Part shown: piece after piece, positions 36,001-42,000 of the stretch
Position numbering within the stretch: position 1 is the stretch's first letter
How the letters are laid out: each line of letters starts with the position of its first letter
Source of the DNA: an uncultured Gammaproteobacteria bacterium
Lineage (GTDB): Bacteria > Pseudomonadota > Gammaproteobacteria > JABCZS01
DNA: 64,000 bases
Reading direction: 5' to 3'
Assembly (NCBI GenBank): GCA_963798975.1
Contig: CAWCVU010000004.1
Coordinates: 20,475 to 84,474, forward strand
Made by a program: the position numbers

Positions 36001-39000
36001 CTGGTTTGCTTTACTCGCTCTCATGATTAGCCATCCTCGCTTTAAACAAAGCTTATCGCGCTGGCAAACCCATATAGGCAAAATCATGGGTGTGGTATTT
36101 TTCTTATTTGCATTTTATTTATTATTCCATATAATTAGAGGATGAAAAAACCCTACACTATTATATTAGGTTGTTTAGCAGCCTTAACACACTTTGCGCA
36201 TGCGAGTGAAGCAGTTACAGTTCCTTCGCTCGAGGGTGGTTTTACTGCATCTGTTGGGACGTTTTATGCCACACCTTCAACCAACAGTAACCCAGGTCAA
36301 GTGCATCACGCACCATCTAACTTGACAGATTTACATTCAAATAACAATAATCCTCAATTCGGTACCCAAGGTTCCATTGGCTACAACTTCAATAATACCG
36401 GTAATGGTGTTGAAATTAACAACCGTAATTTTCGCTAAAAATAGCTCACCTTGTAATCAGGGCTTGTTTTTAAAAAAAACTCATCTATTATTGTTTAAAC
36501 AAGCAACTTCAATTATTCAACTTATAAGGATGAAATTATGAAAAGGACGTCAAACAAACTTTTTCTGTGCTCTTTAACTTCTCTTGCAGTACTTGCATCT
36601 TCTGGCGCTTATGCTGAAGAAATGGCAACTGCGCCTTCATTAGAAGGCGGTTTTAGTGGTATGCTCGGGGGCTTCTTATTTACACCTAGCGTTAATGATA
36701 AAGCTTATGCCGATAACCGTAGTTTTGATGATGTAAATGCTGTACTTAATACTTCTACTGCCAATAATAATGCTGACTATAGTACTGGCTGGCAAGCAGC
36801 GATTGGTTATGCCTTTGAAGGTACTGCCAATGGTATCGAATTGACCTACCGTAGCTTTGATGGTTCTAACGATGCAGATCCAGAAGGCCCATTTGCAATA
36901 AATGTAGATCTTGATGAGCGTGAGATTGGTGCTGGCGTTCATGCTTTTTCTGATGGCACATCTAGCAATCAAGACAATACCTTCCAAAATTGGGATTTAA
37001 TGGCTAGCCAATTTTTAGATATTGGTACTCACATGCAAATGCGTTTCATGGCGGGTGCTTCTTATCTAATGGATTTGGACCAAACCACTAAACTGAACAC
37101 CAACGTTCATGGTCATGCTTATGCTTATGAGCATAGAGGCCCAGAACATACAGAAATTCATTTAGAAGGCGATCTCGATATTTATGAACAAATCAAAAGT
37201 GAATACAGCGGCTGGGGCCCACGTGTGGCAGCTGATGCGCGCTATGATTTCGGCGAAATGATTGATGGCTTTGGTATCGTAGGTGGTGCTTCTTTAGGTT
37301 ATTACTTAGGTAAACAAGAAAGCACAAGCACACTAACTGTCGGCTTTGATGGCTGTGTGTCTGATGAGATTGATGAGGGTAAGAATTCTGAAGAATGTGG
37401 TAGTGGTTCTGTTGGTGCACGTGCTCAAGACAACAGCGATAGCCATGCCGTTACTAACTTAAGAGCCAATGTAGGTATCGATTATGTGTATTACTTCGAT
37501 AACGATGAATTATCTACTCTGGGCTTAGAATTAGGTTATGAAGTAGACACTTACTTTGATGGCGTAGCAACTATCAGCGCTTTAGGTGGCGAAACTGATG
37601 TAACTAATCTTACATTCAGCGGTCCTTACTTAAACGTTAAAGGTGTGTTCTAACACTTAATCGTTTTGTTCTGTCAAGTTACAAGGGCCTATCATTTGAT
37701 AGGCCCTTGTTCTTTTTGGAATTTGATCCTATTATGATTTAATCGAATGTTTTAATGATTACTCACAACAAGGATGATATGATGAAAAGAACATCAAATA
37801 AACTTTTTCTGTGCTCTTTAACTTCTCTTGCAGTACTTGCATCTTCTGGCGCTTATGCTGAAGAAATGGCAACTGCGCCTTCATTAGAAGGCGGTTTTAG
37901 TGGTATGCTCGGGGGCTTCTTATTTACACCTAGCGTTAATGATAAAGCTTATGCCGATAACCGTAGTTTTGATGATGTAAATGCTGTACTTAATACTTCT
38001 ACTGCCAATAATAATGCTGACTATAGTACTGGCTGGCAAGCAGCGATTGGTTATGCCTTTGAAGGTACTGCCAATGGTATCGAATTGACCTACCGTAGCT
38101 TTGATGGTTCTAATGATGCAGGTCCAGAAGGCCCATTTGATGTTAATGTTAACTATGATAGACACTCTCCTCCTATATTTGGATTTGGCGCCGGTGCTTT
38201 TTCTGATGGCACTTCAAGCAATCAAGACAATACCTTCCAAAATTGGGATTTAATGGCTAGCCAGTTTTTAGATATTGGTACTCATATGCAAATGCGTTTC
38301 ATGGCGGGTGCTTCTTACCTAATGGATTTGGACCAAACCACTAAACTGAACACCGACGTTCATGGTTATGCTTATGCTTATGCTGATATAGGTGCACCGA
38401 TTGATATTCATGGAGAAATTCATGCAGAAGGTGATCTTGATATTTATGAACAAATCAAAAGTGAATACAGCGGCTGGGGCCCACGTGTGGCAGCTGATGC
38501 GCGCTATGATTTCGGCGAAATGATTGATGGCTTTGGTATCGTAGGTGGTGCTTCTTTAGGTTATTACTTAGGTAAACAAGAAAGCACAAGCACACTAACT
38601 GTCGGCTTTGATGGCTGTGTGTCTGATGAGATTCCTGATTCATCTAATGCTGAAGAATGTGGTAGTGGTTCTGTCGGTGCTCGTGCTCAAGACAACAGCG
38701 ATAGCCATGCCGTTACTAACTTAAGAGCCAATGTAGGTATCGATTATGTGTATTACTTCGATAACGATGAATTATCTACTCTGGGCTTAGAATTAGGTTA
38801 TGAAGTTGATACTTACTTTGATGGCGTAGCAACTATCAGCGCTTTAGGTGGCGAAACTGATGTAACTAATCTTACATTCAGCGGTCCTTACTTAAACGTT
38901 AAAGGTGTGTTCTAACACTTAATCGTTTTGTTCTGTCGAATTACAAGGGCCTATCATTTGATAGGCCCTTGTTCTTTTATAGTGTTCATCCTATTATATG

Positions 39001-42000
39001 CAAATCAAATGTTTTAATGATTACTTAAATAAGGACGAAATGATGAAAAGGATGTCTAACAAACTTTTTCTGTCTTCTTTAACTTTTATTGCATCCAGCG
39101 CCGTATACGCTGAAGAGCACGTGACTGTGCCTACACTCGAAGGTGGTGTTGAAGCCATGATCGGCGGGTTTTGGGCAGTATCTAGTGCTAATGATCAATC
39201 CTTTGATATTAATCAGAATATTAATTTTGATGAGGTTTTAAATTTTCAAACACTTAATGTCGACCCCAACTATGATTTTAGCTGGCAAGCCTCTGTGGGA
39301 TACGTCTTTGAAGATACCTCCAATAGCATAGAACTTTCTTTTCGTACCTATGATAGTTCTGCAGATGACAGTAAAGCCAATACCGAGCAATTTTTCTTCA
39401 TACCTGTTTCAACTACGGCTTATGGCAAACAAGACAACCAATATCAAAATTGGGACTTAATGATTAGCCAGTTTTTAGATGTAGGCACCCATATGCAACT
39501 GCGTCTTTTAGGCGGTATCTCTTATTTGTCTGAATTAAACCAAACGAATAGTTCAAATTATACTCTTGAGATTCCCTCGTACTTTAGAGAAAACGATTTT
39601 CTTTTTGCCGAGGTGAGCGATCACTCAAGCAGCGACTATAATGGCTTGGGCCCCCGTATAGGTATTGATACCCGGTATGATTTTGGTGATGGTTTTGGCA
39701 TAGTCGGTGGTGGCTCTGTTGCTTATTACTTGGGTGAATTAGAAAATAAAGATCAGCTGGACTGGGATGGCACGGCTCATCCTATTGGTTTTCCCAAACC
39801 CATCCATTTTGATAATCACCTCACTGCACAAGATAACCAAGACGATCATGCCGTCACTAACCTTAGCGCTAATCTAGGTGTCGATTATGTTTATTTTTTT
39901 GATAATGAAGAATTATCAACCTTGGGTTTAGAGTTAGGTTATGAAGTGGATTCATACCTTGAGGGTATAGGCACTTTCAGTGCAATAGATGGCGACACAG
40001 ACGTCAACAATATTACCTTTAGCGGCCCGTACTTAAATCTCAAAGGTGTATTCTAAACCAAGCATAATGCAAAATATAAAGGGGCAGATTCTGCCCCTTT
40101 TTTTATGGATTTTTTTTATGCGCGACATCATTGCGTAAATAAATAGGCACAGCATGTGCTGGATCTATCATGAGCCCTTGCTTGAAAGCCACTTGCGCTA
40201 AAGGCAATGCGGCGTTGGCTAGAGGCATAATATCGGGATAAATTTGTTCAACCACTTCGGTATGTTTAAATTCATGTGCATAGACTTGCCAACCATTGCC
40301 AACGCCCTGCCCTTTGGAAATAATTAATTGTTTTGGAAATAATAAGGCTAATTCGCCTTCAGGTTGCATCAAATCATTTTTATCCAAAACGTAACATCCA
40401 TAATAGATTTGTTGCATGCGTGCGTCTAAAGCCACGAGCGCGCGTTTTACACCGTATTGCTGATGAGCAGCTTGCGCCATGATTTGTAAAGTTGAAATCG
40501 GAATAACAGGTTTGTTTAGGCCATAGGCTAATCCTTGCGTTACACTCACGGCGATACGCACCCCCGTAAAACTGCCTGGTCCACAACCAAAAGCAATGGC
40601 ATCTAAATCTTGGAGTGTGATTTGCGCTTGCTTGAGAACGTCATCGATCATCCCCAATAGTTTTGCCGCATGTTGATTTTTGCAATGCTCAGCCCTGCTA
40701 AATATTTGCTGGTTTTTTGACAGCGCGACAGAACAATATTCTGTGGCTGTGTCTAAGGCAAGTAGTATTTGGGCCATGCTTGATTACTCTGTTGATTAAA
40801 TACAACGTAGTCTACCTGAATACCAAAACAAAAAGCCACTGCAAATAATTACAGTGGCTTTCAACGTATTGCCTGACGGCACTTTATAGGATTATAAAGC
40901 GCGTGCAGAACCCATACGAGCGGGATGTGCTACAGTGCTTTTTACAGCCTTAGCTTTCTTTGCACGAGCTACTTTACGTTTAGGTGCAGCTTTCGTTGCA
41001 GCTTTACGTTTTTTAGCTCCGGCTTTACGTTTAGGCGCAGCCTTTTTAACAGCTTTAACTGTTGATTTTGCTTTAGCTTTTTTACGGGTTGTTTTTTTCT
41101 TACCCGCAGTGGCTTTAACAGCAGCTTTTTTAGCTTTCGCTATAGAAGCTTTAACTGCTTTAGCAGCTTTAGCAGCTTTAGAAACGGCTTGCTTAATCGC
41201 TTTCTTAGCTTTCGCTAATTCAGCTTTATGCTTAGCCCGAGCTTTTTTAAGATCAGCTTGCGCTTTCTTTAATGCAGCTTTTAATTTCTTTTCAACAGTG
41301 CCTACTTTTGCACGTACTGCGGCTTTACGTTTAGTTGCTTTAGCAACAACACGTTTAACTGCAGATACTTTCTTCTTGATAGAACGCTTCGCAGCAGTTC
41401 TTGTTTTGGCTTTCGCCGCTTTCTTAGTTGCCATCGTTTTTTTCTCCTGAAACAATAAAAACAAAAGGTGGATATAAATAAAGCTAGCATATATCCAGAT
41501 AACTTCCATAAGTGATAGCAGAAGTTTTATATTTTTGCCAATTTTTTCATTGATTTGATGATAATTTAATGCAAAATACTCTAAATATCCCATCTAAGCC
41601 CGAATCTTTGATACCAGGTCAATAAAAAATGGTACTTCACAAATCCGCAATTGTTGCCGATAATAAGATTACTTTCTTTTATTAAGTTGAGAATCAAATG
41701 AATGAAGCAGGCAATCAAGATGAGCAATTTGAATTTATAGATGAATTCAATAGCAAAGAAAATGAAGCCAATACCAAAGAGGTTGTGCTGCCGTCTAAGC
41801 TCTATTTATTGCCCCTAACTGAGAGACCTTTCTTTCCGCCGCAAACTTTGCCTTTAGTTTTGGATGACACCCATTGGGTAGACACTTTAAAAAAAATATC
41901 CGATACCAAATCACGCTATACCGGTTTGATACTCTCCAAAATCGATAGCGTTAAAGATTTAAAAATTGATGACCTCTATACCATAGGTACCCTGGTGCGC

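What the first reader, a model, noticed from the sequence alone, without database searches (positions are those of the whole stretch)
36142..40105. Four-member tandem array of Legionella/Coxiella-type MOMP porin genes: a truncated copy, two near-identical copies that differ only in patches, and a divergent copy
Paralogues 1 and 2 are DNA-identical over most of their length. They diverge only in three short internal segments (around aa 110-135, 205-225 and 300-310). Each is followed by an identical 14-bp-stem terminator, so the duplication included the 3' flank. A 98-aa truncated paralogue lies upstream, and a third full paralogue (~45% identity) lies downstream. This pattern is what gene conversion or segmental exchange among porin copies would produce. 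It is a plausible substrate for surface antigenic variation or for switching pore properties.
Basis: seen in the sequence. Interest (0 to 1): 0.75.

Follow-up and report, generated by a model that had tools for sequence, protein, structure and literature searches.

The report
Tandem Legionella-type porin genes, variable loops
An uncultured Legionella-like bacterium carries a row of outer-membrane porin genes, two of which are near-identical except at three surface-exposed loop tips; this layout is already known from Legionella pneumophila, but the short "truncated" gene at the head of the row proves to be a conserved gene under selection.

Summary
Four same-strand ORFs lie between dapE/LysE and tsaB: a 98-aa N-terminal MOMP-like ORF, two twins (371 and 377 aa, 93% identical) and a 46%-identical third copy. 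The three full-length proteins match Pfam PF05150.

The twins show 0 nonsynonymous and 15 synonymous differences over 322 backbone codons. All amino-acid changes and two 9-bp indels fall in three patches. A confident AlphaFold model (pLDDT 91) resembles PDB 9NH1, the L. pneumophila Lpg2961 porin. It places the patches at the tips of predicted extracellular hairpins L2, L3 and L4.

Synonymous divergence is five times higher in the patches (p=2e-5). That fits a mosaic history better than point mutation since a recent duplication. Related metagenomic loci carry 1 to 5 copies at the same site.

L. pneumophila has the same layout: two tandem mompS copies, a ~50% neighbour and a ~75% copy elsewhere. 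This is therefore a new member of a known kind.

A programmed antigenic-variation system is not supported. Every full-length copy is complete, with its own start and terminator, and there are no silent cassettes.

The unexpected part is the "truncated" copy. It has orthologues of 89-98 aa in five related sources, all with the same stop position; pN/pS is 0.13-0.41 in the ten pairs with DNA. Its function is unknown.

The parts
36142..36438 (+). Mini-MOMP gene (98 aa). It encodes a signal peptide plus the MOMP segment beta1-L1-beta2-T1-start of beta3.
   Evidence: ORF. It is 37% identical to the c1 N-terminus. Orthologues of 89-98 aa share the same stop position in L003, L004, L005, L006 and P0112. 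pN/pS is 0.13-0.41 with Fisher p<=1e-6 in all 10 pairs. Its ATG overlaps the TGA of the upstream LysE ORF.
36449..36462 (+). Weak hairpin plus T-run after the mini gene. It aligns with the terminator of c1 and c2 and may be a degenerate terminator.
   Evidence: Terminator-like site with a 5-bp stem. Aligned with the c1/c2 terminator.
36538..37653 (+). MOMP copy 1 (c1, 371 aa): a PF05150 porin predicted to form a 10-stranded beta-barrel.
   Evidence: Pfam E=7.7e-31. AF2 pLDDT 91. Foldseek top hit is 9NH1, E=5e-15. Identical to database protein P0001.
36877..36942 (+). c1 variable patch 1 (codons 114-135), at the loop L2 tip.
37102..37176 (+). c1 variable patch 2 (codons 189-213), the distal beta5-beta6 hairpin (loop L3). 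It contains an ATGCTT hexamer repeat of 2.5 copies.
37372..37389 (+). c1 variable patch 3 (codons 279-284), at the loop L4 tip, bracketed by Cys273 and Cys287.
37681..37710 (+). Intrinsic-terminator-like palindrome after c1 (13-14 bp stem followed by a T-run).
37711..37781 (+). Spacer between c1 and c2. It is 75% identical to the c2-c4 spacer and about 50% identical to the mini-c1 spacer.
37782..38915 (+). MOMP copy 2 (c2, 377 aa). The open frame extends upstream to 37755.
   Evidence: Pfam E=4.8e-31. P0002 is 377 aa. Codon comparison.
38121..38195 (+). c2 variable patch 1 (codons 114-138, +3 codons relative to c1).
38355..38438 (+). c2 variable patch 2 (codons 192-219, +3 codons). ATGCTT is present in 3.8 copies, and there is a 12-nt duplication.
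38634..38651 (+). c2 variable patch 3 (codons 285-290).
38943..38972 (+). Terminator-like palindrome after c2, identical to the one after c1.
39043..40056 (+). Divergent MOMP copy (c4, 337 aa; alternative starts at 39040 and 38998). It is 46% identical to c1 and c2 and has shorter L2-L4 loops.
   Evidence: Pfam E=9.3e-38. P0008 is 337 aa. Alignments.
40078..40100 (.). Bidirectional terminator-like hairpin shared by c4 and the convergent tsaB gene.

Best explanation
This is a tandem family of Legionella-type major outer membrane protein (MOMP) porin genes. It sits at a conserved chromosomal site (dapD-dapE ... tsaB-lon) in an uncultured Legionellales-like gammaproteobacterium.

Each full-length gene has its own ribosome-binding site (a Shine-Dalgarno-like AAGGA), signal peptide and terminator-like hairpin, so each looks like a separate transcription unit. 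Each encodes a tall 10-stranded beta-barrel.

The array grows and shrinks by unequal recombination of a unit of about 1.25 kb (gene + terminator + spacer). Its members are kept alike by duplication and gene conversion. As a result c1 and c2 share one backbone (barrel, periplasmic turns, loops L1 and L5, 3' flank).

The tips of extracellular hairpins L2, L3 and L4 escape this homogenisation or are replaced. There the sequence is as diverged as between distant paralogues, and it also changes by in-frame indels and short-repeat slippage.

The result (inferred, not shown) is that the cell holds a standing set of porin isoforms: c1, c2, a 75%-identical copy elsewhere on the contig, and the divergent c4. 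They have the same membrane core but different exposed surfaces. The most plausible use is to vary what phages, grazing hosts or other surface binders can recognise. This is not a programmed switch.

The 98-aa ORF at the head of the array is a separate, conserved, secreted mini-protein derived from the MOMP N-terminus. Its role is unknown.
For: Family and fold:
- PF05150 at 107-130 bits.
- A profile of 100 homologues hits only PDB 9NH1, E=1.5e-21.
- The AF2 model has pLDDT 91 and ten long strands. The Foldseek top hits are the 9NH1 chains, E=5e-15.
- 9NH1 is modelled as the L. pneumophila MOMP 'likely encoded by lpg2961', a 10-stranded trimeric porin (PMC12501162).

Mosaic between the twins:
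- Backbone: 322 codons, 15 synonymous and 0 nonsynonymous differences (pS 0.071).
- Patches: 55 codons, pS 0.37 and pN 0.34, plus two 9-bp indels.
- Synonymous enrichment in the patches: Fisher p=2.3e-5.

Topology:
- The patches are the L2, L3 and L4 tips. The short turns T1-T4 (predicted periplasmic) are conserved.
- Across 98 homologues the same segments are the indel-rich, high-entropy ones (gap fraction 0.44-0.93).

Dynamics at the locus:
- Syntenic loci carry 1 copy (L007), mini+1 (L005), mini+4 (L003) or mini+5 (L004).
- Paralogues within a genome are closer to each other than to copies in other genomes: c1/c2 93%, L4_b/c 98% and L3_c/d 82%, against <=71% between genomes for the long-type copies.
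- L4_c matches L4_d at its 5' end and L4_b over its 3' 900 nt.

Duplication unit: the c1-c2 and c2-c4 spacers are 75% identical.

Slippage: the ATGCTT repeat differs in copy number, and c2 has a 12-nt duplication in patch 2.

Precedent: L. pneumophila has two tandem mompS copies (~99% identical), a ~50% neighbour (lpg2960) and a ~75% copy elsewhere (lpg1974) (PMC5042515). Here the figures are 93%, 46-51% and 75-77% (P0003 on the same 158-kb contig).
Against: - I found no donor sequence for either set of patches. Nothing else in the window matches them, and P0003 differs from both twins in all three patches at protein level. Segment import is therefore inferred from divergence levels, not demonstrated.
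- pN/pS in the patches is about 0.9. That fits relaxed constraint as well as diversifying selection.
- Alignment inside the patches is uncertain, which inflates pS somewhat.
- Heterogeneity of synonymous differences within the backbone is not significant (permutation P=0.07).
- There is no expression, strain-level or read-level data. The two metagenome scans for close relatives found nothing.
- Extracellular orientation rests on the standard OMP topology rule applied to a predicted model, not on an experiment.
- The supporting mosaic in L004 comes from a scaffold with an N-gap inside the array.
Confidence: 0.7

Rival explanations
1. Programmed antigenic or surface variation. One MOMP gene would be the expression site, and the others, including the truncated copy, would serve as donors whose loop segments are copied in by segmental gene conversion. 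A single cell line would thereby switch its surface.
For: Conserved backbone sequence flanks each variable patch and would allow segmental conversion. The patches are surface-exposed in the model. The array is recombinationally active in relatives.
Against: - All three full-length copies are complete genes, each with a Shine-Dalgarno-like AAGGA, a start codon, a signal peptide and a terminator. None is a silent, promoterless or 5'-truncated cassette.
- The only short copy ends before L2-L4, is only 37% identical, and is itself under purifying selection. It cannot donate the variable segments.
- There are no invertible repeats and no out-of-frame simple-sequence tracts.
- With only two or three donors the repertoire would be tiny.
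Confidence: 0.08
2. Recent tandem duplication followed only by local mutation. Point substitutions, slippage and small indels would be fixed by diversifying selection in three loops, with no exchange of segments between paralogues.
For: No donor for the patches was found. The hexamer-repeat copy-number change and the 12-nt duplication in patch 2 show that local slippage does occur. The same loops are hypervariable across the whole family.
Against: - Synonymous divergence in the patches is about 5 times that of the backbone (p=2e-5).
- Most patch codons differ at 2-3 positions while 104 consecutive backbone codons have no change. That is hard to reach by point mutation in the time that left pS=0.07 elsewhere.
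- pN/pS of about 0.9 is not the excess of replacements expected from strong positive selection alone.
Confidence: 0.17
3. Assembly artefact. The twins or the distribution of patches between them would be produced by mis-assembly of a repeat in a metagenome-derived contig, for example strain variants stitched in tandem.
For: Identical stretches of more than 300 bp exceed a short read. The L. pneumophila reference genome itself lost one mompS copy, which the authors suggest (unconfirmed) may be a sequencing or assembly error (PMC5042515). L004 has an N-gap inside its array.
Against: - The two copies have different upstream spacers and unique junctions.
- Both ORFs are intact, and both differ by in-frame changes only.
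- Both proteins are on record on one 158-kb contig in two archives.
- Tandem twins are the norm at this locus in relatives and in Legionella.
Confidence: 0.05

Closest known systems
Legionella pneumophila momp locus: lpg2960, two tandem mompS copies (lpg2961), and lpg1974 elsewhere
   Same: - Same protein family (PF05150) and same fold: the experimental structure 9NH1 is the best structural match.
- Same gene layout: two tandem near-identical copies, an adjacent ~50% paralogue and a ~75% copy elsewhere in the genome (PMC5042515). Here the figures are 93%, 46-51% and 75-77%.
   Different: - The twins here differ in three loop patches (93% aa identity), whereas the L. pneumophila pair is ~99% identical.
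- The proteins are about 80 residues longer than the 288-residue 9NH1 chain. Loops L2-L4 are insertions relative to most family members (gap fractions 0.44-0.93).
- A conserved mini-MOMP ORF heads the array.
- The host is an unnamed lineage whose Lon protease is only ~65% identical to any named organism.
Neisseria Opa proteins (own knowledge): a paralogous beta-barrel family with hypervariable loops reshuffled by recombination between loci
   Same: A constant membrane barrel with surface loops as the only variable parts. Mosaic paralogues are kept similar by intragenomic recombination.
   Different: Opa genes are dispersed, encode 8-stranded barrels, and are switched on and off by a CTCTT repeat in the signal-peptide coding region. 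I found no such repeat here, the genes are in tandem, and the fold has 10 strands.
Anaplasma msp2/p44 and Ehrlichia omp-1/p28 clusters (own knowledge)
   Same: Tandem or clustered paralogous outer-membrane protein genes with a central hypervariable region and conserved flanks. Gene conversion is the diversifying mechanism.
   Different: Anaplasma uses one expression site and many truncated pseudogene donors. Here all full-length copies are complete genes, and the one short ORF is a conserved gene that lacks the variable regions.
Chlamydial MOMP variable domains VD1-VD4 (PMC13254160)
   Same: A trimeric beta-barrel with surface-exposed variable domains on a conserved core, and cysteines associated with the barrel. 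9NH1 can be superposed on it at about 6 A RMSD.
   Different: It is an unrelated sequence family encoded by a single gene. Its variation is between strains, not between tandem paralogues.

Membership tests
Legionella_OMP (Pfam PF05150) / 'Lpg1974 family pore-forming outer membrane protein' | Profile-HMM match above the curated threshold | tested here: met
   c1 scores 107.5, c2 108.2 and c4 130.2 bits against a cut-off of 25.4. The 98-aa ORF has no hit on its own. Relatives in the database are named 'Lpg1974 family pore-forming outer membrane protein' by NCBI.
Legionella_OMP (Pfam PF05150) / 'Lpg1974 family pore-forming outer membrane protein' | Match to an NCBIfam model | tested here: not met
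   hmmscan against NCBIfam release 20 gave no family at E<=0.01 for any of the four proteins. The NCBI name may rest on a rule that is not in this HMM library.
Legionella_OMP (Pfam PF05150) / 'Lpg1974 family pore-forming outer membrane protein' | 10-stranded beta-barrel fold like Lpg2961 (PDB 9NH1) | tested here: met
   AF2 pLDDT 91 and pTM 0.83, with ten long membrane strands plus small loop hairpins. Foldseek best hits are 9nh1 A/B/C at E=5e-15 to 5e-14, probability 1.0, TM (target) 0.67-0.72. Next come 10-stranded Pla/OpcA/OmpT.
Legionella_OMP (Pfam PF05150) / 'Lpg1974 family pore-forming outer membrane protein' | Sec signal peptide and C-terminal aromatic beta-signal | tested here: met
   Read from the sequence: an N-terminal hydrophobic segment ending in AYA/YAEE, and a C-terminus ...GPYLNVKGVF in c1, c2 and c4. 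K368, G369 and F371 are invariant or nearly invariant in 100 homologues.
Legionella_OMP (Pfam PF05150) / 'Lpg1974 family pore-forming outer membrane protein' | Trimer formation, pore activity, peptidoglycan tethering, association with Dot/Icm | not testable with these tools
   These are known for L. pneumophila MOMPs only (PMC12501162; PMC11841132). I found no Dot/Icm genes among the window ORFs I scanned, but most ORFs were not scanned.
Concerted evolution / gene conversion among tandem paralogues | Paralogues within a genome more alike than copies between genomes | tested here: met
   Identity matrix: c1/c2 93% against <=60% to any L003 or L004 copy; L4_b/L4_c 98%; L3_c/L3_d 82% against 69-71% to L4_e.
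Concerted evolution / gene conversion among tandem paralogues | Significantly heterogeneous synonymous divergence along the gene (mosaic) | tested here: met
   pS is 0.37 in the patches and 0.071 in the backbone (Fisher p=2.3e-5). Within the backbone alone the heterogeneity is not significant (P=0.07).
Concerted evolution / gene conversion among tandem paralogues | Identifiable donor of the divergent segments | tested here: not met
   There is no second copy of any patch in the window. P0003 differs from both twins in all three patches. DNA of the other paralogues on the contig was not retrievable.
Programmed antigenic variation by cassette gene conversion (pilE/pilS, msp2, vlsE type) | One expression site plus silent, incomplete donor cassettes carrying the variable segments | tested here: not met
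   All full-length copies are complete, with their own start, signal peptide and terminator. The one short ORF lacks L2-L4 and is a selected gene.
Programmed antigenic variation by cassette gene conversion (pilE/pilS, msp2, vlsE type) | Variants arising within a clonal population | not testable with these tools
   No reads or strain series are available. The metagenome scans for close relatives returned nothing.
Phase-variable outer membrane protein family (Opa type) | Out-of-frame simple-sequence repeat in the 5' coding region or promoter | tested here: not met
   TRF finds only in-frame 6-nt and 12-nt repeats inside loop patch 2. An A8 run at about 36471-36478 lies in the mini-c1 spacer, but the homologous spacers of L003 and L004 have different T/A runs there.

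The most novel reading that the evidence does not exclude
The 98-aa 'truncated copy' may be a new kind of small secreted protein: a three-strand fragment of a 10-stranded porin (signal peptide, then beta1-L1-beta2-T1-start of beta3). It has been kept for its own function since before these lineages split, and it is always encoded immediately upstream of the first full-length MOMP gene. It might act on the MOMPs themselves, for example as a partner, cap or assembly/BAM modulator through beta-strand pairing. The evidence shows selection on the protein (pN/pS 0.13-0.41, same stop position, its own orthologous clade). It says nothing about the mechanism.
Probability: 0.25. Interest if true: 0.6.

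Novelty: new member of a known kind. Interest (0 to 1): 0.38.

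Why it matters
- The 'two tandem twins + divergent neighbour + distant copy' organisation of MOMP genes, known from Legionella pneumophila, also occurs in an uncultured lineage whose closest MOMP relatives are annotated Legionellales or Gammaproteobacteria MAGs. There the twins have gone further: they keep an identical core and differ only at the outermost loop tips.
- This is a clean natural example of concerted evolution restricted by structure. 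It indicates which parts of this porin face the outside world.
- The practical lesson for genomics is that these arrays are easily mis-assembled and mis-typed, as mompS-based typing has shown.
- The conserved mini-MOMP ORF is the only element without precedent that I could find. It would be worth a targeted experiment in a culturable relative, if one carries it.

Tried and rejected
- Context look-ups by exact protein for P0001 and P0003, to get the rest of the source contig, returned nothing. The DNA of the 75% paralogue and of P0036 and P0084 could therefore not be compared.
- The Lon protease search did not name the organism. The closest named relatives are only 62-66% identical: Sulfuricella, Sulfurivermis and unnamed MAGs.
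- The genome-contig scan returned only two distant MOMP loci, at 43% and 40% identity.
- Two metagenome scans for strain-level relatives of c1/c2 (protein patterns, then a degenerate DNA pattern for DARYDFGEMIDGFGIVGG) found nothing.
- AlphaFold on the mini protein with a 5-sequence alignment gave no usable model (pLDDT 51).
- phmmer of c1 alone against PDB found nothing. Only the 100-sequence profile reaches 9NH1.
- Rfam found only one tRNA in the window and nothing near the array.
- The promoter scan is uninformative overall, with 10 sites against 14.6 expected. A TTTGCA-17-TATAAT site directly upstream of the mini gene has a counterpart in L003, but this is weak evidence.
- A diversity-generating retroelement seems unlikely. 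No template-like second copy of a patch turned up, and the patch changes include indels and substitutions at all four bases. I did not search the neighbourhood for a reverse transcriptase.
- A lipoprotein reading of the mini protein (ILGC at residues 8-11) was dismissed because that Cys is not conserved in the orthologues.
- The profile search of 1.84 billion representatives found other short MOMP-like hits. Most look like frameshifted or cut-off fragments rather than further mini families. P0235 (95 aa) ends close to the mini's stop and could not be classified without its genomic context.

Full report
**What is in the sequence**

Between dapD/dapE plus a LysE-type gene on the left and a convergent tsaB, a Lys/Ala-rich protein and lon on the right, four same-strand ORFs lie head to tail:
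- 36142-36438 (98 aa)
- 36538-37653 (371 aa, c1)
- 37782-38915 (377 aa, c2; the frame is open from 37755)
- 39043-40056 (337 aa, c4; alternative starts at 39040 and 38998)

tblastn of c1 and c4 against the whole window finds these four and no others. The three full-length proteins match Pfam PF05150 (Legionella major outer membrane protein) at 107-130 bits against a cut-off of 25.4. The 98-aa ORF is too short to score. It aligns with residues 1-107 of the others and keeps the family-invariant residues within that span.

**The twins**

The DNA alignment of c1 and c2 with flanks and a codon-by-codon table show the following.
- All 39 nonsynonymous differences and both 9-bp indels lie in three segments: codons 114-135, 189-213 and 279-284 in c1 numbering.
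- The remaining 322 codons carry 15 synonymous and no nonsynonymous differences.
- Homology starts about 25 nt upstream of the start codon. It runs through the stop and through an identical 30-nt palindromic terminator (37681-37710 and 38943-38972) into the spacer.

**Where the patches sit in the protein**

I aligned 100 homologues and predicted c1 from that alignment. The model is confident (pLDDT 91, pTM 0.83). It has ten long strands joined alternately by long, variable connections and short, conserved ones.

Its best structural matches are the three chains of PDB 9NH1 (E=5e-15, probability 1.0), followed by the 10-stranded Pla, OpcA and OmpT. The family profile also hits only 9NH1 by sequence (E=1.5e-21). 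[quoted passage not shown] It is a trimer of 10-stranded barrels, identified as the MOMP likely encoded by lpg2961 (PMC12501162; PMC13254160).

I applied the standard outer-membrane-protein topology rule: both termini are periplasmic, the C-terminal Phe is the beta-signal, and short conserved turns are periplasmic. This is established knowledge, not tested here. Under this rule the connections are:
- L1: 52-81
- T1: 93-97
- L2: 117-129
- T2: 163-165
- L3: 201-202
- T3: 238-244
- L4: 279-284
- T4: 320-326
- L5: 346-353

The three patches are thus the tips of L2, L3 and L4. They sit at the far end of strands 30-35 residues long, which must project well above the membrane.

Across the other 98 homologues the same three segments are the most gapped (gap fraction 0.44-0.93) and among the most variable. 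The turns and membrane strands are the most conserved. L1 and L5 are equally variable across the family yet identical between the twins.

Two further details:
- A cysteine pair (C273/C287) brackets patch 3 and is conserved in all 'long-type' paralogues.
- Patch 2 includes a hexamer repeat with different copy numbers and a 12-nt duplication.

**Mosaic history or local mutation?**

Synonymous divergence is 0.37 in the patches against 0.071 in the backbone (Fisher p=2.3e-5). Most patch codons differ at two or three positions. Positive selection on point mutations raises replacement changes, not silent ones. The patches therefore appear to be older than the backbone. Either the backbone has been homogenised around them, or they were imported.

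Three limits apply:
- Alignment within the patches is uncertain.
- pN/pS there is about 0.9, so diversifying selection is not demonstrated.
- No donor was found in the window, nor, at protein level, in the 75%-identical paralogue P0003 encoded elsewhere on the same 158-kb contig.

Uneven spacing of the 13 silent differences in the backbone is not significant (P=0.07). I do not claim several separate conversion tracts.

**Related loci**

Exact-protein look-ups brought in syntenic loci from other metagenomes.

| Locus | Content between dapE and tsaB | Lon identity to the window |
|---|---|---|
| L007 | one MOMP gene | 93% |
| L005 | short ORF + one MOMP | not available |
| window | short ORF + three MOMPs | - |
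| L003 | short ORF + four MOMPs | 90% |
| L004 | short ORF + five MOMPs | 90% |

L006 shows dapE, the short ORF and a MOMP gene that runs off the end of the contig. L001, a more distant MAG, has five MOMP genes in tandem.

Within each genome the copies resemble each other more than they resemble the copies of other genomes. L4_b and L4_c are identical over about 900 nt but differ at the 5' end, where L4_c matches L4_d. That scaffold contains an N-gap inside the array, so this example is weaker than it looks.

In the window the c1-c2 spacer is 75% identical to the c2-c4 spacer and about 50% to the spacer before c1. This fits duplication of a unit of gene + terminator + spacer by unequal recombination. 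I could not obtain strain-level data.

**Comparison with what is known**

Mercante and colleagues reported the L. pneumophila momp complement (PMC5042515). Properly assembled L. pneumophila genomes carry:
- two tandem mompS paralogues, ~99% identical to each other;
- lpg2960, immediately upstream, ~50% identical to them;
- lpg1974, elsewhere in the chromosome, ~75% identical to them.

The NCBI reference sequence lacks one of the two mompS copies; the authors suggest, without confirmation, that this is a sequencing or assembly error.

The window has the same pattern: 93%, 46-51% and 75-77%. The array is therefore a new member of a known arrangement in a known protein family. It differs in three ways:
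- The twins diverge only in their loops.
- Loops L2-L4 are much longer.
- A short ORF heads the array.

A cassette-type antigenic-variation system is not supported.
- Every full-length copy has a Shine-Dalgarno-like AAGGA, a start codon, a signal peptide and its own terminator.
- There are no silent or 5'-truncated donors that carry the variable regions.
- There are no inverted repeats around a promoter and no out-of-frame repeat tracts.

The organism is uncultured. Its Lon is at most ~65% identical to that of any named species, and the nearest MOMP relatives are annotated as Legionellales or Gammaproteobacteria MAGs. Selection by phages, protist hosts or other surface binders is a more natural guess than adaptive immunity. 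That is inference only.

**The 'truncated' copy**

ORFs of 89-98 aa that align end to end with the window's 98-aa ORF, and stop at the same aligned position, occur in L003, L004, L005 and L006. In these four loci the ORF lies directly after dapE and directly before the first full-length MOMP gene. A further such ORF, P0112, lies on a 1,093-bp contig whose context I did not fetch.

- Between species they are 55-64% identical to the window protein and up to 87% to each other.
- They are only 30-45% identical to the N-terminus of any full-length paralogue, including those in their own genome. Their conservation therefore cannot come from being overwritten by functional neighbours.
- In all ten pairwise comparisons among the five with DNA, silent sites are heavily diverged (pS 0.31-0.81). 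Replacement sites are not (pN/pS 0.19-0.41 over the full length, 0.13-0.40 for the mature part; Fisher p<=1e-6).
- The corrected dN/dS for L003 against L004 is 0.15, the same as for tsaB and dapE.

This is a gene under purifying selection, not a decaying fragment. It encodes a signal peptide and the first three membrane strands with loop L1.

A profile search of 1.84 billion representative proteins finds it as a single narrow cluster. Structure prediction gives nothing usable. Its function remains unexplained. A role connected with the MOMPs is the obvious but untested guess.

**Verdict**

The array is an ordinary, though neat, member of a known kind. The conserved mini-MOMP gene is the only feature I could not place, and it accounts for most of the remaining interest.

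Noticed in passing
window 35524-36145 (+): A LysE-family exporter gene is split over two reading frames. The first ~28 residues are in the frame of 35524. The rest is ORF 35618-36145, which matches LysE profile positions 22-190 of 193. This implies a frameshift or sequencing error near 35612-35620. The gene is absent from this position in L003, L004 and L007. Its TGA overlaps the ATG of the mini-MOMP gene.
   Followed up: partly
window 37115-37129 and 38362-38384; 38406-38429: Inside loop patch 2 an in-frame ATGCTT hexamer repeat has 2.5 copies in c1 and 3.8 in c2. c2 also has a 12-nt tandem duplication (ATTCATGCAGAA). Slippage therefore contributes to the loop difference.
   Followed up: partly
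window c1 residues 273 and 287 (about 37354-37356 and 37396-37398), and the equivalent residues in c2: A cysteine pair brackets the L4 tip (patch 3). It is conserved in all long-type paralogues (P0003, L3_c, L3_d, L4_e) but absent from the short type. It may form a disulfide clamp around a hypervariable loop. The L3 loops are also His-rich (c1 HGHAYAYEHRGPEHTEIH).
   Followed up: no
window 40892-41593 (-): A Lys/Ala-rich, histone-H1-like ORF with no Pfam match. The syntenic gene is called as 181 aa in L003, L004 and L007, so the true start is probably the internal MATKKAAK rather than the 233-aa ORF start.
   Followed up: no
window 47787-50330 (-), 14852-17155 (-), 17519-18472 (-): Large ORFs (847, 767 and 317 aa) with no Pfam domain lie in low-GC stretches (GC 0.32-0.34, against about 0.40 elsewhere). 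At the position of the 847-aa ORF, L003 and L004 have no-Pfam ORFs of 643 and 616 aa, and L007 has none. These may be lineage-specific or effector-like genes.
   Followed up: no
window 11318-12400 (-): A 360-aa protein with a NACHT/STAND NTPase domain (E=1.8e-17).
   Followed up: no
L004 about 8640-8880: A run of N (scaffold gap), preceded by a partial MOMP 5' end, lies inside the five-gene MOMP array. Assemblies of these arrays are fragile, and the L4_b/L4_c/L4_d mosaic should be treated with caution.
   Followed up: partly
L007 7156-7245; window 36463-36537; L003 6490-6568; L004 5301-5379: The spacer upstream of the first full-length MOMP gene (…TTTAAACAAGCAACTTCAAT…AAGGATGAAA.TATG) is conserved across four organisms. 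This holds even though the gene behind it belongs to different MOMP subtypes, and whether or not the mini gene precedes it. It is probably the conserved promoter or leader of the array's first gene.
   Followed up: partly
window 56381-56453 (-): A single tRNA gene. It is the only Rfam hit in the window.
   Followed up: no
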